64,000 nucleotides of DNA from Planctomycetota bacterium. GTDB lineage: Bacteria > Planctomycetota > Planctomycetia > Gemmatales > HRBIN36. A program made the translations under genes and the position numbers. The stretch covers positions 30,342-94,341 of the forward strand of contig JACTMY010000018.1 in the NCBI GenBank assembly GCA_014584395.1, read 5' to 3'. Positions 57,807 to 61,685 of this stretch are shown in pieces. Under the pieces are notes generated by a model that was given only the letters and a program-made list of their open reading frames with translations, ran no database searches and was not told the origin of the DNA. The first letter of the stretch is position 1, and every line of letters starts with the position of its first letter.

Positions 57807-60800
57807 ATGTCAGAACTCAACTTGCTCGAAATGGAACGCACCCTGATGCGTGATCTGCGCTCCGCCGCCGCCGAGCGCGCTGCGGCCGAAACGGCGATGA
57901 TCACCATTTTTAAAAGCCGCATCCAACAAACCTTGGATCAATGGGAAGCCACGCAAAAAAGATTGCTCGAAGAGCGTCAACAAGAAGAGGAAGCCACGCG
58001 GCAAAACCGCGAGGATCGCTTGCAGAACCTGCGCACTTCGATCACCCAGGAAAACGAAGCTCTGCAATTGGCCTTCGCCGAAGCCAAAGAGAACATCGAA
58101 AGCACCTACCATCAAGACAAGGCCAATACGCAAAAGGAATATCGTGAAACGCGCTGGACCACGCGGATGGTCTACGAGGCTAATAAAAATGCCTCGAAAC
58201 AACAGTACATCGAGGCCACGCACAAGGCCGAGAGCGCGGTGACGCGCTTTCAAAACATCGTGAACGAAGTCGAAATCTATCTGCGCCGCTGCCGGCTGCC
58301 GACCTGGCACGCCGAGGTGATCCCCTTGCCTCCCCTCGAAGGGGATGAAATTCCTCCAGAACCGCTGCGCGAGATGGATGAACAATTGGAAATCGTCGAA
58401 AGCCAATGGAAGAAACTGCAAGAACTGCCTTTGCCCAAGATATTCCGCGGCTATTGGTTCATTCTGGTGATCATTGGACTGGCCCTGGCGATCATCTTTC
58501 CGACGATTTTCATCACCAAGGACCCCCTCTTCGGCACGACCGTGGGCACAGCCGCGGCCATGTTCATCTGCCTTAGTCTCTTCTTCGGCTTGCGGGCAAC
58601 GGCTTCCTCGCAGGCCGGGCGCTTATGCCGTCCGTTGGTGCACGCCGTCGCGGAAGGTCGAGCCTTGAAGGATGCCTGCATCCAGCAAGCCACCCGCATC
58701 CATCGCCGACAAGTGGCTGGCTTTCAAAAACAGCGCCAAGCCGAGCTGCAACAAGCCGATGCTATCTATCAACCGAAACTCGAGGAATTGAAAAAGAAAC
58801 GGATTCAGGACCTGCGCCGCAATTCCGCCCTGTACCAGCCGCAACTGGCCGCCTTGCAAGCACGCTTCGAGTTCGAGCAGCATCAGATCGAAACGGAATA
58901 CAAGACCCGGCTGCTGATCGCCCAGGAAACGTATGACAGCGAATTGTTGATGGCGCGCACGGAATTCGAGTCCTCCAAAGCCGACATCGAGCGTCATCAA
59001 GCGGATGCCTGGCGGCAGATGGCTTTCGCCTGGCGGGCCGCCTTGGCCGTCGTCAAGGAGCGCGTGGACGTGATCCAGCGCGAAGCCGACCGCCTGTTTC
59101 CTTCATGGGAAAGCTGCGCCCGGTCTTATCCGCAAAGAGATTCGATTCCCTCGGTGCTTCGCATCGGCAAATTGATCCTCGATTTTGGCCAAATACCCAA
59201 TGGCATGCCCATCGACCCGGGGCTAAAGGCGGAAAGCTCCCTCCGCTTCGAAATCCCGGCCCTGCTGCCTTTCCCCACCGGCGGAAATCTGCTGCTCCGC
59301 ACCGCGACCCCGTTTGACCGCCAGCAAGCGATTCGCAGTTTGCAAACGTTGATGCTCCGTTATCTGACCTCGGTTCCTCCTGGCAAGGTCAAATTAACTG
59401 TCATCGATCCGGTCGGGCTGGGGGACAACTTCGCCGCCTTCATGCACCTGGCGGATTTCGATGAATCCTTGATCGCGCATCGCATTTGGACCGAACCGGC
59501 CCACATTGAGCAGCGGCTTTCGGACATGACGGCCCACATGGAGAGCATCATCCAGAAATATCTACGCAATCAATACAGCAGCATCGAAGTCTACAACAAC
59601 GCCGCGGGCGAGGTGGCTGAACCGTTTCGCGTGCTGGTCATCGCCAGCTTTCCCGTCAACTTTACCTCGGACGCCGCTCATCGCCTGGTGAGCGTGATCA
59701 GCAGCGGGGCGCGCTGCGGCGTCAGCGCCATGGTGAGCGTGGACACGAAGCAAGAACTTCCAGAAGGATTCCACCTGGGCGACATCGAACCGCTGTGCGT
59801 CAATTACTCATGGAAACAGGATCAACCCCATTGGCACGATCCCGATTTTGCCGATCTGCCCTTTGTCCTGGATGATCCGCCCGACAACGAACTCACAACC
59901 GCCATCATTTGCCAAGTCGGCGCCGCCGCCAAGGACGCCCAGCGCGTTGAAGTGCCTTTTCAATACATCGCTCCGCAGGATGCGGATTGGTGGCGCAACG
60001 ACAGCGGCCATGGACTGCACATTCCCTTGGGCCGCGTTGGCGCGACGCGCCGCCAGGCCATGCAGTTGGGCACGGGCACGGCGCAACACGTGCTCATCGC
60101 GGGCAAAACCGGCTCTGGCAAATCGACGCTCCTCCACGTCTTGATCACGAGCTGCGCCCTCCATTACGCGCCGGAGCAAGTGGAATTGTATCTGGTCGAT
60201 TTCAAGAAAGGCGTTGAATTCAAGCCCTACGCCATCCATGCCTTGCCGCATCTGCGGGTCGTCGCCATCGAAAGCGAACGCGAGTTTGGCCTGAGCGTCT
60301 TGCAGCGGCTGGATGAAGAGCTCAAGCGGCGCGGCGATCGTTTTCGTCAATTGAGCGTCCAGGATATCGCCGCTTGCCGGGTAGCCGATCCGCATACCCC
60401 TTATCCGCGCATTTTGCTCATCGTCGATGAATTCCAGGAATTTTTCACGGAGGATGACCGTTTGGGACAGGAGGCCGCCCTGGTGCTCGATCGCTTGGTC
60501 CGGCAAGGCCGCGCCTTTGGCATCCACGTGATCCTGGGTTCGCAAACCATTGGCGGCGCTTATACGCTGGCGCGCAGCACCATCGATCAAATGGCCGTCC
60601 GGATTGCCTTGCCTTGTTCCGAAGCGGATGGGCACCTCATTTTAAGCGAGGGCAATGCCGCGGCGCGGCTCCTCAGCCGCCCTGGCGACGCCATCTACAA
60701 CGACATGAGCGGCCTGGTCGAGGGCAATCATCCCTTTCAAGTGGCGTGGCTGGCCGATGACACGCGCGAAAAAATGCTCATCAAGCTGGACGAACTCGCC

Positions 60801-61685
60801 AACGGCCGGGGCAAGCCGCGTCCACCGGAACCCATCGTCTTCGAGGGCAACGCTCCTGCCAATCTAAGCAAGAATACATTTCTCAAAGCTTGCTTCGCCA
60901 TCCGGCCCACGCAGATGCCCAAGGAAGCGGCCGCCTGGTTGGGAGAACCCATCGCCATCAAGGATCCCACGGCAGCGCTCTTCCGCCGACAAAATGGCCG
61001 TCATTTGCTGATTTTGGGGCAGGACGCCGAGGAAACGCTTGGCGTCATGTGCAGTTCCTTGATCAGTTTGGCGGCGCAGCTTCCGGATCAAGCTCGACTA
61101 TATGCGTTGTCCGCCACCTGGGATGGAGATGAATTAGCCCCCTTCAAGCTGCTGTTTGATATGGCGCCGCAAGTTCACGAAATGCACGACCACCGTTCGC
61201 TCAGCGATTTCATGAAGTCCATGGGCGAGGAACTGCAGCGCCGCCAGCAAGCGCCGACCGAGGAGGACCCACCCGTTTTTGTGTTTATTCACGGCCTGCA
61301 ACGCTTGCGCGATCTGCGTCGGGCCGAGGACGACTTTGGCTTTTCTTCTCGAGACGCCGCCATGACGCCGGCGCAAATCCTCACGCATTTGGTACGCGAG
61401 GGAGCAGGTTTAGGGATTCATCTCGTGCTGTGCGTGGACGGCTTGGGCAGTCTGCTCCGAAGCATCGACCGGCAGACCTTGAGGGACATCGAATTGCGCG
61501 TGCTCTTCCAGATGAGTTCCGGCGATTCCAGCAATTTGATCGACACTCCCCTCGCCAGCCGATTGGGACTGCATCGAGCTTTATTCGCCAGCGAAGCGGA
61601 AGGTAAATTGGAGAAATTCCGCCCCTACGGCCCCCCCGCGAAGGATTGGATCGAACAGCTTCGCCGTCATTGGCCCCTTCGTTAA
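57807..61685 (+). CDS. Membrane FtsK/SpoIIIE-family ATPase with three tandem P-loop-like domains (EssC/EccC-like)
   Basis: Walker A GKTGSGKST (60102-60128), Walker B LLIVDEF (D-E at 60426-60431). Flanking degenerate FtsK-like domains: NLLLRTATPFDRQQA at about 59280-59330, and HLLILGQDAEETLG at about 61002-61043. Two TM helices (about 58451-58592) sit between coiled-coil regions. ATG 57807 with an AAAGGA SD; the TTG at 57732 is less likely. Confidence 0.85.
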   Translation: MSELNLLEMERTLMRDLRSAAAERAAAETAMITIFKSRIQQTLDQWEATQKRLLEERQQEEEATRQNREDRLQNLRTSITQENEALQLAFAEAKENIESTYHQDKANTQKEYRETRWTTRMVYEANKNASKQQYIEATHKAESAVTRFQNIVNEVEIYLRRCRLPTWHAEVIPLPPLEGDEIPPEPLREMDEQLEIVESQWKKLQELPLPKIFRGYWFILVIIGLALAIIFPTIFITKDPLFGTTVGTAAAMFICLSLFFGLRATASSQAGRLCRPLVHAVAEGRALKDACIQQATRIHRRQVAGFQKQRQAELQQADAIYQPKLEELKKKRIQDLRRNSALYQPQLAALQARFEFEQHQIETEYKTRLLIAQETYDSELLMARTEFESSKADIERHQADAWRQMAFAWRAALAVVKERVDVIQREADRLFPSWESCARSYPQRDSIPSVLRIGKLILDFGQIPNGMPIDPGLKAESSLRFEIPALLPFPTGGNLLLRTATPFDRQQAIRSLQTLMLRYLTSVPPGKVKLTVIDPVGLGDNFAAFMHLADFDESLIAHRIWTEPAHIEQRLSDMTAHMESIIQKYLRNQYSSIEVYNNAAGEVAEPFRVLVIASFPVNFTSDAAHRLVSVISSGARCGVSAMVSVDTKQELPEGFHLGDIEPLCVNYSWKQDQPHWHDPDFADLPFVLDDPPDNELTTAIICQVGAAAKDAQRVEVPFQYIAPQDADWWRNDSGHGLHIPLGRVGATRRQAMQLGTGTAQHVLIAGKTGSGKSTLLHVLITSCALHYAPEQVELYLVDFKKGVEFKPYAIHALPHLRVVAIESEREFGLSVLQRLDEELKRRGDRFRQLSVQDIAACRVADPHTPYPRILLIVDEFQEFFTEDDRLGQEAALVLDRLVRQGRAFGIHVILGSQTIGGAYTLARSTIDQMAVRIALPCSEADGHLILSEGNAAARLLSRPGDAIYNDMSGLVEGNHPFQVAWLADDTREKMLIKLDELANGRGKPRPPEPIVFEGNAPANLSKNTFLKACFAIRPTQMPKEAAAWLGEPIAIKDPTAALFRRQNGRHLLILGQDAEETLGVMCSSLISLAAQLPDQARLYALSATWDGDELAPFKLLFDMAPQVHEMHDHRSLSDFMKSMGEELQRRQQAPTEEDPPVFVFIHGLQRLRDLRRAEDDFGFSSRDAAMTPAQILTHLVREGAGLGIHLVLCVDGLGSLLRSIDRQTLRDIELRVLFQMSSGDSSNLIDTPLASRLGLHRALFASEAEGKLEKFRPYGPPAKDWIEQLRRHWPLR

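What the first reader, a model, noticed from the sequence alone, without database searches (positions are those of the whole stretch)
57807..61685. Unusual domain logic of the EssC-like ATPase: only the middle of three P-loop domains is canonical, and the TM hairpin is sandwiched by two long coiled coils
The sequence shows about 215 aa of N-terminal charged coiled coil with no FHA or DUF domain that I can see. A TM hairpin follows (YWFILVIIGLALAIIFPTIFI and GTTVGTAAAMFICLSLFFGL, about 58451-58592). After it comes a second coiled coil of about 150 aa, and then three FtsK-like folds. Domain 1 has NLLLRTATPFDRQQA in place of Walker A and FRVLVIASFP in place of Walker B. Domain 2 is intact (GKTGSGKST, LLIVDEF). 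Domain 3 has LILGQDAEETLG and VFVFIHGL. Classic EccC has a degenerate DUF domain followed by three nucleotide-binding domains, and EssC has two N-terminal FHA domains. This is therefore a distinct architecture. The degenerate C-terminal domain could be the substrate-docking domain, by analogy with EccC D3.
Basis: partly seen in the sequence, partly recalled or inferred. Interest (0 to 1): 0.6.

Follow-up and report, generated by a model that had tools for sequence, protein, structure and literature searches.

The report
Three-domain type VII-like secretion ATPase
This gene encodes a membrane-anchored motor protein related to the ATPases of type VII secretion, with one working ATPase domain between two dead ones. 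It belongs to a four-gene cassette found throughout the Planctomycetota; the layout was noted in a 2012 footnote but has never been studied experimentally.

Summary
The ORF at 57807-61685 encodes a 1292-aa protein with these parts:
- an N-terminal helical arm of about 214 aa
- a tight two-helix TM hairpin (aa 216-262)
- a second helical arm of about 170 aa
- three FtsK-like folds.

Only the middle fold has Walker A/B motifs, and they are invariant in 92 family representatives. Domain 3 is FtsK-like by sequence profile. Domain 1 is FtsK-like only by predicted structure (Foldseek E 1e-10). There is no FHA domain. The arms show a 3.64-3.67-residue periodicity, not heptads.

It maps onto EccC's DUF-D1-D2/D3 with one C-terminal domain fewer, and domain 1 has degenerated in the same way as the EccC DUF. 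Zhang et al. [quoted passage not shown]

The family is large: at least 2803 clusters at 50% identity and at least 586 species genomes, with Planctomycetota names throughout the listed top hits. It usually sits in a conserved cassette of WXG100, a 177-aa helical protein, a 71-aa WXG-like protein and the ATPase. Soluble relatives occur on plasmids.

The most likely function is a minimal T7SS-like motor, but this is unproven. It is a new member of a known but uncharacterised kind, of moderate interest.

The parts
57807..61685 (+). CDS of the 1292-aa membrane-anchored three-domain FtsK/EssC-like ATPase (stop codon included)
   Evidence: ORF list. Exact-length homologue P0001 and 13 further full-length relatives. 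Pfam FtsK_SpoIIIE 2.1e-34.
57807..58448 (+). N-terminal cytoplasmic helical arm (aa 1-214); aa 1-164 are free of Pro and Gly; Pro-rich linker at aa 165-214
   Evidence: Composition. Hydrophobic periodicity 3.64, power 26, none at 3.5. No Pfam or NCBIfam domain. Sequence poorly conserved.
58452..58592 (+). TM hairpin: TM1 aa 216-236 (58452-58514) and TM2 aa 243-262 (58533-58592), joined by a loop of about 6 residues
   Evidence: Kyte-Doolittle scan. Coordinates. A hairpin at the equivalent position in 89/93 family members.
58611..59126 (+). Post-membrane helical arm or 'stalk' (aa 269-440)
   Evidence: 62% AELKQR. Periodicity 3.67, power 20. Weak profile matches to apolipoprotein A-I amphipathic repeats, E about 2e-3.
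59127..59981 (+). Domain 1 (aa 441-725): degenerate FtsK-like pseudo-ATPase, positional equivalent of the EccC DUF. P-loop site at 59286-59330; Walker-B site at 59625-59654.
   Evidence: AlphaFold model pLDDT 85.7. Foldseek top hits are EssC/EccC/FtsK, E 1e-10, TMq 0.63. No sequence-level match to PDB. 48/285 columns near-invariant. Motif statistics.
59982..60806 (+). Domain 2 (aa 726-1000): canonical FtsK/EccC-D1-like ATPase. Walker A GKTGSGKST at 60102-60128; Walker B LLIVDEF at 60414-60434.
   Evidence: Pfam PF01580 at aa 736-914. Best PDB matches are EccC D1. Walker motifs invariant in 93 sequences.
60807..61682 (+). Domain 3 (aa 1001-1292): degenerate FtsK-like fold without a P-loop lysine. 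P-loop site at 61008-61043; Walker-B site at 61275-61298; conserved loop LRDLRRAEDDFGF at 61305-61343.
   Evidence: hhalign against domain 2: 92%, E 7e-7. Profile hit to Geobacillus EssC 5fv0/4lya, E 5e-4. The three-domain model aligns end to end with EccC 4nh0. Motif statistics.
56524..56796 (+). WXG100-family protein (90 aa; the turn motif is W-R-D rather than W-x-G), first gene of the conserved cassette
   Evidence: Pfam WXG100 1.9e-9, NCBIfam TIGR03930 4e-7. Found upstream of the ATPase on the same strand in most related loci.
56990..57523 (+). 177-aa all-helical protein of unknown family, second gene of the cassette
   Evidence: Conserved in 62 of 85 sources searched (84 loci plus the window). 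No Pfam or PDB match. Its profile hits the ORF next to the Rhodococcus plasmid ATPase, E 2.5e-6.
57520..57735 (+). 71-aa WXG100-like helical hairpin (invariant W21, W28, D30), third gene. Its ATG overlaps the stop of the 177-aa gene (ATGA).
   Evidence: Conserved in 67 of 85 sources searched (84 loci plus the window). Its profile hits an annotated WXG100 protein of Caballeronia, E 2e-6. In-register W-x-D alignment with the cassette's WXG100. Overlap seen in the sequence.

Best explanation
The gene encodes the motor of a minimal type VII-like (WXG100/ESX-type) module that is conserved across the Planctomycetota.

**Shown:**
- The protein is anchored in the cytoplasmic membrane by one tight TM hairpin. 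Both the N-terminal helical arm and the whole C-terminal part are therefore on the same side of the membrane. That this side is the cytoplasm is inferred from the ATPase domains and from the basic residues flanking the hairpin.
- The C-terminal part is a stack of three FtsK-like folds: a DUF-like pseudo-ATPase, a canonical ATPase equivalent to EccC D1, and a second pseudo-ATPase.
- The gene is co-inherited with a WXG100 protein, a WXG100-like 71-aa protein and a 177-aa helical protein.

**Inferred by analogy with EccC/EssC and FtsK:**
- The protein forms hexamers in which only the middle ring hydrolyses ATP.
- The membrane-proximal pseudo-ATPase ring (domain 1, strongly conserved) acts as a structural or gating ring, like the EccC DUF.
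- The poorly conserved C-terminal pseudo-ATPase docks the helical-hairpin substrates, probably a WXG100/p71 heterodimer, possibly with p177.
- The twelve TM helices of a hexamer would form, or contribute to, the channel to the periplasm.
- The two amphipathic arms, of about 160-170 residues each and of like periodicity, would form a long stalk or membrane-associated scaffold that replaces the accessory membrane proteins of T7SSa and T7SSb.
For: **Architecture.** ORF and motifs. Pfam FtsK_SpoIIIE 2e-34 at aa 736-914.

**Closest relatives.** The best PDB sequence matches are T7SS ATPases (EccC 4nh0 1.7e-32, EccC5 2.5e-25, YukB 3.5e-19), ahead of FtsK at 3e-8. The strongest stretch falls on EccC D1.

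**Domain 3.** It is homologous to domain 2 (hhalign 92%, E 7e-7) and to EssC (E 5e-4).

**Domain 1.** The model of domain 1 alone (pLDDT 85.7) gives only EssC/EccC/FtsK/TcpA as top structural matches (E 1e-10).

**Three-domain model.** It aligns over its whole length with EccC D1-D3 (E 7e-32, 960 columns).

**DUF-like degeneration.** The P-loop of domain 1 is one residue shorter, with a conserved Arg (78/93) and no Lys. The Mtb EccC5 DUF is described in the same way.

**Cassette.** WXG100, p177, p71 and the ATPase lie in the same order and on the same strand in 56 of 66 loci with enough upstream DNA. These loci come from Gemmatales, Isosphaerales, Pirellulales and Planctomycetales, and their flanks differ.

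**Substrate candidates.** The p71 profile hits a bona fide WXG100 protein (E 2e-6).

**Literature.** Zhang et al. 2012 describe WXG-linked ATPases with three FtsK domains, only the middle one active, as versions of T7SS.
Against: - No secretion has been shown for any member.
- No other T7SS core component was seen in the conserved cassette. EccB/D/E, MycP, EssA/B, EsaA and a YukD-like ubiquitin fold are all absent, and flanking genes differ between genomes.
- Relatives with the same three-domain core on Caballeronia and Rhodococcus plasmids have no TM segment. They sit beside CARF, VWA, PP2C, kinase and TerD genes. The core motor can therefore work without being a membrane channel.
- Planctomycetota have an outer membrane, so export across the inner membrane alone would not release a protein from the cell.
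- NCBIfam EssC/EccC equivalog scores are far below cut-off.
- Hexamerisation, pore formation and substrate docking on domain 3 are analogies, not results.
Confidence: 0.55

Rival explanations
1. It is not an export machine. It is a membrane-tethered member of a broader family of WXG-hairpin-handling ATPases used in conflict or stress-response systems. The motor would load, unfold or release WXG100-type proteins, which might for example then insert into the cell's own membrane as pore formers upon a signal. The TM hairpin and amphipathic arms would only localise the motor.
For: - Collinear three-domain relatives lack TM segments. They lie on plasmids beside a DUF1887 CARF protein, two VWA proteins, a PP2C phosphatase and a Ser/Thr kinase (Caballeronia), or carry a TerD-like N-terminus next to TerD and DUF475 genes (Rhodococcus).
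- These plasmid loci keep WXG100 homologues, and the Rhodococcus locus also a p177 homologue.
- Zhang et al. call these versions 'mobile'.
- The arms have apolipoprotein-like 11/3 amphipathic periodicity, typical of helices that lie on membrane surfaces.
Against: - In Planctomycetota the cassette is chromosomal and widely conserved: at least 586 species genomes, with housekeeping genes as neighbours. It lacks CARF, VWA or kinase partners.
- PADLOC gave only generic FtsK/HerA-domain hits (SspH, mad8, HerA) and no system-specific model.
- The closest characterised relatives of the active domain are secretion ATPases.
Confidence: 0.25
2. It is a DNA translocase of the FtsK/SpoIIIE/TraB type that pumps DNA at the membrane for division, conjugation or transformation.
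For: The active domain belongs to the FtsK-HerA superfamily and matches FtsK motor domains in sequence (E 3e-8 to 7e-11) and in structure.
Against: - There are no FtsK alpha or gamma (KOPS-binding) domains, whereas true FtsK proteins found in the same search carry PF17854 and PF09397.
- EccC/EssC score far better than FtsK.
- Linkage to WXG100 genes is tight.
- Two of the three rings are catalytically dead, as in T7SS ATPases.
Confidence: 0.05
3. It is an ordinary EccC/EssC whose FHA domain or fourth domain was simply missed.
For: None found. Only the general family resemblance.
Against: - Pfam and NCBIfam find no FHA, or anything else, in aa 1-440.
- The polypeptide after the stalk holds exactly three P-loop-type folds in the AlphaFold model.
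- Actinobacterial relatives found in the same search are 1400-1480 aa long and have FHA hits.
- Bit scores are 5-8 times below the EssC/EccC equivalog cut-offs.
Confidence: 0.02

Closest known systems
[quoted passage not shown]
   Same: Three FtsK-like domains, only the middle one active. Adjacent to stand-alone WXG proteins. Planctomycetes are named explicitly among the lineages. The plasmid relatives in a beta-proteobacterium and an actinobacterium fit the other lineages and the 'mobile' label.
   Different: The published description is one sentence. It does not mention the TM hairpin, the two 11/3-periodic helical arms, the DUF-like nature of domain 1, or the four-gene cassette with p177 and p71. 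It also does not mention that the Planctomycetota version looks chromosomal and phylum-wide rather than sporadic and mobile.
EccC (T7SSa/ESX ATPase; T. curvata 4NH0, M. tuberculosis ESX-5 7NPR)
   Same: Two TM helices followed by a stalk. A degenerate pseudo-ATPase (DUF) next to the membrane, then a canonical D1, then degenerate domains. Genetic linkage to WXG100 proteins. Best sequence and structure matches.
   Different: - Three rather than four NTPase-like folds.
- A 214-aa helical arm before the TM hairpin.
- A stalk of about 170 aa.
- The C-terminal domain has lost the P-loop lysine altogether.
- No EccB, EccD, EccE or MycP partners in the cassette.
- The host is a diderm planctomycete.
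EssC / YukB (T7SSb ATPase of Bacillota)
   Same: A cytoplasmic N-terminal module precedes the two TM helices. DUF-D1-type order. WXG100 partner. The profile hit of domain 3 falls on Geobacillus EssC D2-D3 crystal structures.
   Different: No FHA domains; the N-terminal module is a long amphipathic helix. One domain fewer. No EssA, EssB, EsaA or YukD-like genes nearby.
FtsK/SpoIIIE DNA translocases
   Same: The same P-loop fold and the same Walker A pattern, GxxGxGK[ST].
   Different: No alpha or gamma domains. A triple domain with two dead copies. WXG100 context. Much weaker scores than to EccC.

Membership tests
T7SS membrane ATPase EccC/EssC (TsxC) | FtsK/SpoIIIE-type domain with canonical Walker A GxxGxGK[ST] and Walker B hhhhDE (D1) | tested here: met
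   GKTGSGKST and LLIVDEF in domain 2, invariant in 93 sequences. The best match is EccC D1.
T7SS membrane ATPase EccC/EssC (TsxC) | Two TM helices N-terminal to the ATPase domains | tested here: met
   Hairpin at aa 216-262, present in 89/93 relatives. Here it is preceded by a 214-aa arm.
T7SS membrane ATPase EccC/EssC (TsxC) | Four NTPase-like domains (DUF, D1, D2, D3), as stated for T7SSa-j by Garrett et al. 2024 | tested here: not met
   Only three P-loop-type folds in aa 441-1292. Literature statement.
T7SS membrane ATPase EccC/EssC (TsxC) | Score above the NCBIfam equivalog cut-offs (TIGR03928 EssC 778 bits; TIGR03924 EccCa 509; TIGR03925 EccCb 347) | tested here: not met
   100.5, 94.4 and 96.9 bits, each over one domain only.
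T7SS membrane ATPase EccC/EssC (TsxC) | Encoded next to a WXG100 protein | tested here: met
   WXG100 (Pfam 1.9e-9) lies about 1 kb upstream on the same strand. Linkage is conserved in 56/66 loci.
T7SS membrane ATPase EccC/EssC (TsxC) | Accessory core components in the locus (EccB/D/E/MycP, or EssA/EssB/EsaA/YukD-like TsxB) | tested here: not met
   Neighbours carry no such Pfam domains, and flanks differ between genomes. Only the four-gene cassette is conserved. Components encoded elsewhere in the genome were not searched for.
T7SS membrane ATPase EccC/EssC (TsxC) | ATP-dependent export of WXG100 substrates | not testable with these tools
   Needs genetics and secretome analysis.
EssC (T7SSb) specifically | Two N-terminal FHA domains | tested here: not met
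   No FHA hit at E<=0.1 in Pfam or NCBIfam. Actinobacterial relatives with FHA were detected by the same pipeline.
Three-FtsK-domain, WXG-linked YueA-like ATPase (Zhang et al. 2012) | Three HerA/FtsK domains | tested here: met
   Domain 3 by profile. Domain 1 by structure prediction and Foldseek. Whole model against EccC.
Three-FtsK-domain, WXG-linked YueA-like ATPase (Zhang et al. 2012) | Only the middle domain has active-site motifs | tested here: met
   Motif statistics over 93 sequences.
Three-FtsK-domain, WXG-linked YueA-like ATPase (Zhang et al. 2012) | Association with solo WXG proteins; occurrence in planctomycetes | tested here: met
Three-FtsK-domain, WXG-linked YueA-like ATPase (Zhang et al. 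2012) | 'Mobile' distribution | tested here: inconclusive
   Relatives lie on plasmids and flanks differ between planctomycete genomes. Within the phylum, however, the gene is very widespread and sits among housekeeping genes.
FtsK/SpoIIIE DNA translocase | FtsK alpha and gamma (winged-helix, KOPS-reading) domains around the motor | tested here: not met
   No PF17854 or PF09397 hits. True FtsK hits have them.

The most novel reading that the evidence does not exclude
The Planctomycetota cassette could be a self-sufficient, four-gene protein translocon of a diderm phylum. In this reading a single polypeptide supplies the channel (12 TM helices per hexamer), a long stalk made by antiparallel pairing of its two equally long 11/3-periodic arms, a gating pseudo-ATPase ring, one power ring and a docking ring. 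That would make it the simplest type VII-like machine known. Alternatively, the same core is a general 'WXG-hairpin motor' that evolution has used both as a secretion engine and, in soluble form, in plasmid-borne conflict systems.
Probability: 0.2. Interest if true: 0.7.

Novelty: new member of a known kind. Interest (0 to 1): 0.4.

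Why it matters
Reviews of type VII secretion place the system in Actinomycetota and Bacillota and give every ATPase four NTPase-like domains. A 2025 review of the Planctomycetota does not mention it at all.

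This family shows that a stripped-down relative is a standard part of planctomycete genomes. It has one active ring, two dead rings, no FHA domain and no known accessory membrane proteins.

If it exports its WXG100 partners, it would define the minimal requirements of a T7SS-type translocon. It would also be a natural experiment on what the degenerate DUF, D2 and D3 domains are for. If it does not export them, it points to a non-secretory role for WXG100/FtsK-like pairs.

Either way the claim is now testable in genetically tractable planctomycetes. As a sequence observation, however, it is not new.

Tried and rejected
1. **Domain 1 by sequence.** I tried to prove the domain 1 fold from sequence. 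hhalign of domain 1 against domain 2 gave an in-register alignment but E 0.6, and against domain 3 E 0.043. The domain 1 profile against PDB sequences gave only noise (uridine phosphorylase, E 0.5). Sequence alone therefore does not establish the fold; predicted structure does.
3. **Internal duplication of the two arms.** hhalign gave 96.5%, E 7e-10 over 112 ungapped columns. The reversed-sequence control still gave 92%, E 5e-7, while column shuffles gave nothing. I conclude the arms share periodicity and composition, and that homology is not demonstrated.
4. **Classical heptad coiled coil.** There is no power at period 3.5, and a crude a/d-occupancy scan found only one segment (aa 128-161) above the 99th percentile of shuffles.
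5. **Identity of p177 and p71.**
   - Neither had a Pfam hit of its own.
   - PDB profile searches gave noise or designed helical repeats.
   - Only 1 of 12 p71 homologues touched Pfam WXG100, at E 0.041.
   - hhalign of p71 and p177 against the cassette's WXG100 was in register but weak (E 0.015 and 0.005).
   - The only stronger link is the p71 profile against the Caballeronia WXG100 (E 2e-6).
6. **Defence-system models (PADLOC).** These gave only generic FtsK/HerA-domain hits.
7. **Word-indexed homologue search.** It badly underestimated the family, finding 14 members. The exhaustive profile search found 2803 clusters.
8. **TPR, 190-aa and 530-aa neighbours.** They are not conserved with the cassette: found near it in 4 (TPR), 1 (190-aa) and 1 (530-aa) of 85 sources (84 loci plus the window), the single hits being the window itself.
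9. **Iyer et al. 2004 (FtsK-HerA superfamily paper).** It is not held in the library.

Full report
**What is there.** The ORF at 57732-61685 (+) has an ATG at 57807, preceded by AAGGA. From that ATG it encodes 1292 aa, and an identical 1292-aa product is on record in public assemblies.

A hydropathy scan finds just two TM-grade segments, aa 216-236 and 243-262, joined by about six residues. This is a tight hairpin, so both flanks lie on the same side of the membrane. I take that side to be the cytoplasm, because the ATPase domains must be there and Lys/Arg flank the hairpin on both sides; no topology predictor was run.
- Before the hairpin lie 214 residues that are 58% A/E/L/K/Q/R, with no Pro or Gly in aa 1-164.
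- After it lie about 170 residues of the same character.

Pfam finds a single FtsK_SpoIIIE domain (aa 736-914, 2.1e-34). Neither Pfam nor NCBIfam finds an FHA domain or anything else N-terminal.

- *Domain 3 (aa 1001-1292):* it is FtsK-like by sequence. hhalign against the family's domain 2 gives 92% probability and E 7e-7. LILGQDAEETLG falls on Walker A and VFVFI on the Walker B strand. The family profile also hits the Geobacillus EssC D2-D3 crystal structures at E 5e-4.
- *Domain 1 (aa 441-725), by sequence:* sequence methods fail. hhalign puts NLLLRTAT..., KVKLTVIDP and FRVLVIASF in register with VLIAGKTGSGKS, VELYLVDF and RILLIVDEF, but at E 0.6. A domain 1 profile finds nothing in PDB sequences.
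- *Domain 1, by structure:* structure prediction settles it. Domain 1 alone folds with pLDDT 85.7 and pTM 0.85. Its top Foldseek matches are exclusively EssC, EccC, FtsK and TcpA (best E 1e-10, TMq 0.63), followed by the DUF-bearing EccC chains of ESX-3 and ESX-5.
- *All three together:* the model of aa 432-1292 (pLDDT 77.9) aligns over its entire length with the D1-D2-D3 crystal structure of T. curvata EccC (E 7e-32, 960 columns).

**Only the middle domain is active, and this is a family trait.** I used 92 full-length representatives that are 36-51% identical to the query.
- *Domain 2:* G-[KR]-T-G-S-G-K-S and D-E-F are invariant.
- *Domain 1:* the P-loop site is one residue shorter. It reads x-G-x-G-R-x-x-A, with Arg in 78/93 sequences and no Lys or Ser/Thr. 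The Walker B Asp is replaced by Ala (81/93).
- *Domain 3:* it has G-Q-x-[DE]-E-A-A with no Lys, and [YH]-[GD] in place of D-E.

Conservation differs between the folds. Domain 2 has 105/275 near-invariant columns, domain 1 has 48/285 and domain 3 has 20/292. The arms and the hairpin keep their architecture but not their sequence; the hairpin is present in 89/93.

**How this compares with EccC/EssC.** The active domain matches EccC D1 best: 62-81 bits against 29-46 for D2 and 12 for D3. Domain 1 therefore sits where EccC has its DUF.

The crystal-structure paper on the Mtb EccC5 DUF describes a degenerate Walker A that is one residue shorter and lacks the glycines, Lys and Ser/Thr. It also describes a conserved Arg bridging to the Walker B Asp. 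The same paper notes that D2 and D3 of EccC/EssC are also degenerate and that only D1 is canonical.

The real differences are:
- three rather than four NTPase-like folds (four is stated for all T7SSa-j ATPases)
- a helical arm instead of FHA
- a very long stalk
- complete loss of the P-loop lysine in the last domain
- NCBIfam scores 5-8 times below the equivalog cut-offs.

**The 'coiled coils'.** Family-averaged hydrophobicity shows sharp periodicity at 3.64 residues in the N-arm (power 26) and 3.67 in the stalk (power 20), where random expectation is 1. There is nothing at 3.5 (power 1-2), and domain 2 as a control gives at most 3.4. The family profile also weakly hits apolipoprotein A-I repeats (E about 2e-3).

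These are 11/3-type amphipathic helices, not heptad coiled coils. Their profile-profile similarity to each other (96.5%) largely survives sequence reversal (92%). It therefore reflects shared periodicity, not proven duplication. Their similar lengths on either side of a tight hairpin suggest that they could pair antiparallel. That is speculation, and I could not test it.

**Size and spread of the family.** The word-indexed search found only 14 relatives, those with a source name labelled Gemmatales or Gemmataceae. An exhaustive search with the domain 1 profile found 2803 clusters at 50% identity (1272 at E<=1e-30). Most of the full-length hits among the 150 listed are about 1300 aa long, with domain 1 at about aa 440-740; many of the others are shorter fragments.

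A scan of species-representative genomes gave at least 586 hits. The top 80 are named Gemmatales, Isosphaerales, Pirellulales, Planctomycetales or unclassified Planctomycetota, and they include cultured Singulisphaera sp. Ch08 and Gemmata algarum JC673. One carries only an 'uncultured bacterium' label, and six bins labelled 'uncultured Alcaligenaceae' are probably mislabelled.

**Genomic context.** In 56 of 66 loci with enough upstream sequence, the ATPase is preceded on the same strand by homologues of three window genes, in this order:
- WXG100 (56524-56796; Pfam 1.9e-9)
- the 177-aa helical protein (56990-57523)
- the 71-aa protein (57520-57735).

The flanks differ completely between genomes. 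The window's TPR, 190-aa and 530-aa neighbours are not conserved. The 71-aa protein has invariant W21, W28 and D30. It aligns its W-x-D with the W-R-D turn of the cassette's WXG100, and its profile hits an annotated WXG100 protein (E 2e-6). It is probably the hairpin partner. No EccB/D/E, MycP, EssA/B, EsaA or YukD-like gene belongs to the cassette.

**Relatives outside the phylum.** Domain 1 finds plasmid genes in Caballeronia, Rhodococcus and Deinococcus. The Caballeronia (927 aa) and Rhodococcus (1322 aa) proteins align collinearly with the query across all three domains. Identities are 28-29% at E 6e-70 and 4e-107, with one Walker A/B pair in the middle, and neither has a TM segment.
- The Caballeronia locus reads VWA, WXG100, three hypothetical genes, ATPase, DUF1887 CARF, VWA, PP2C, Ser/Thr kinase.
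- The Rhodococcus protein starts with a TerD-like region. It is followed by p177-like and WXG100-like ORFs and by TerD and DUF475 genes.

**Prior knowledge.** Zhang et al. [quoted passage not shown] I found nothing further in the library. A 2024 survey of T7SS variants is confined to Gram-positive phyla, and a 2025 review of the Planctomycetota mentions no T7SS.

**Mechanism.**
- *Shown:* membrane anchoring by one hairpin, with both flanks on one side; a pseudo-ATPase, ATPase, pseudo-ATPase stack; co-inheritance with two WXG-type hairpin proteins and a 177-aa helical protein.
- *Inferred from EccC/EssC/FtsK:* a hexamer with a single catalytic ring; a conserved membrane-proximal DUF-like ring for assembly or gating; a variable distal ring for substrate docking; and export of a WXG100/p71 dimer through a channel to which the 12 TM helices contribute.

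I give this about 0.55. The main rival (0.25) is that the core is a hairpin-handling motor that need not translocate anything. The soluble plasmid relatives in conflict-system contexts suggest this. A role as a DNA pump is unlikely (0.05).

**Verdict.** It is a new member of a known, experimentally untouched kind. Interest is moderate.

Noticed in passing
L085 (Caballeronia sp. SBC2 plasmid pSBC2-5, NZ_CP049321.1 24151-36639): A soluble 927-aa three-domain relative of the ATPase sits in an apparent operon: VWA, WXG100, three hypothetical genes, ATPase, DUF1887 CARF protein, VWA, PP2C phosphatase, Ser/Thr kinase. This looks like a signalling or conflict system rather than a secretion system.
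   Followed up: partly
L086 (Rhodococcus sp. AH-ZY2 plasmid, NZ_CP126457.1 134825-147250): A 1322-aa relative has a TerD-like N-terminus and no TM hairpin. It is followed by a p177-like ORF (E 2.5e-6) and a WXG100-like ORF (E 9e-11), then TerD and DUF475 genes.
   Followed up: partly
window 57807-58448 and 58611-59126: The two helical arms flanking the TM hairpin share the same 3.64-3.67 periodicity and give a 112-column ungapped profile match (96.5%). The reversed control is almost as good (92%). They may pair with each other; this is unexplained.
   Followed up: partly
window 61305-61343 (aa 1167-1179): There is a strongly conserved charged loop, LRDLRRAEDDFGF, directly after the dead Walker-B strand of domain 3. 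R1168, L1170 and R1171 are near-invariant. hhalign treats 12 residues here as an insertion relative to domain 2. It is a candidate regulatory or contact element.
   Followed up: no
L001/L002 (Gemmataceae MAGs; P0012), also L034, L035, L058, L065: In about 10 of 66 loci the ATPase has no detectable, or an incomplete, WXG100/p177/p71 set upstream. In L001 it stands alone, with an 84-aa ORF downstream. The partners may be encoded elsewhere or be too diverged for phmmer.
   Followed up: no
window 57520-57523: The stop codon of the 177-aa gene overlaps the start codon of the 71-aa gene (ATGA), which suggests translational coupling. In many related loci the 71-aa ORF also abuts or overlaps the ATPase start.
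   Followed up: partly
window 56524-56796: The cassette's WXG100 protein has W-R-D, not W-x-G, at the hairpin turn. Its C-terminal tail is very strongly conserved (consensus ...hiPFLlRKAERiEEYLqQR across 59 sequences). This tail is a candidate targeting signal.
   Followed up: partly
window 52774-54366 (-): A 530-aa predicted membrane protein has a Gly-rich stretch and a Pro/Thr/Ser/Glu-rich low-complexity C-terminus. It has no convincing Pfam hit and is not conserved next to the cassette.
   Followed up: no
window 55364-56440 (+): A TPR-repeat protein with a helical C-terminal part lies immediately upstream of the WXG100 gene on the same strand. Homologues are near the cassette in only 4 of 85 sources searched, one of them the window itself, so it is probably not part of the module.
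   Followed up: partly
L024, L026, L049, L070, L083, L084: MAGs labelled 'uncultured Alcaligenaceae' carry this Planctomycetota-type gene at 50-54% identity, together with the cassette. The taxon labels of these bins are probably wrong.
   Followed up: no
window 44467-47610, 50236-51657, 51719-52646, 61747-62247: The surrounding genes look like ordinary housekeeping genes. By ORF size and translated sequence alone (no family search was run) they resemble an RND-type efflux pump, a TolC-like outer-membrane factor, ribosomal proteins S9 and L13 on the minus strand, and a ferredoxin directly downstream of the ATPase.
   Followed up: no
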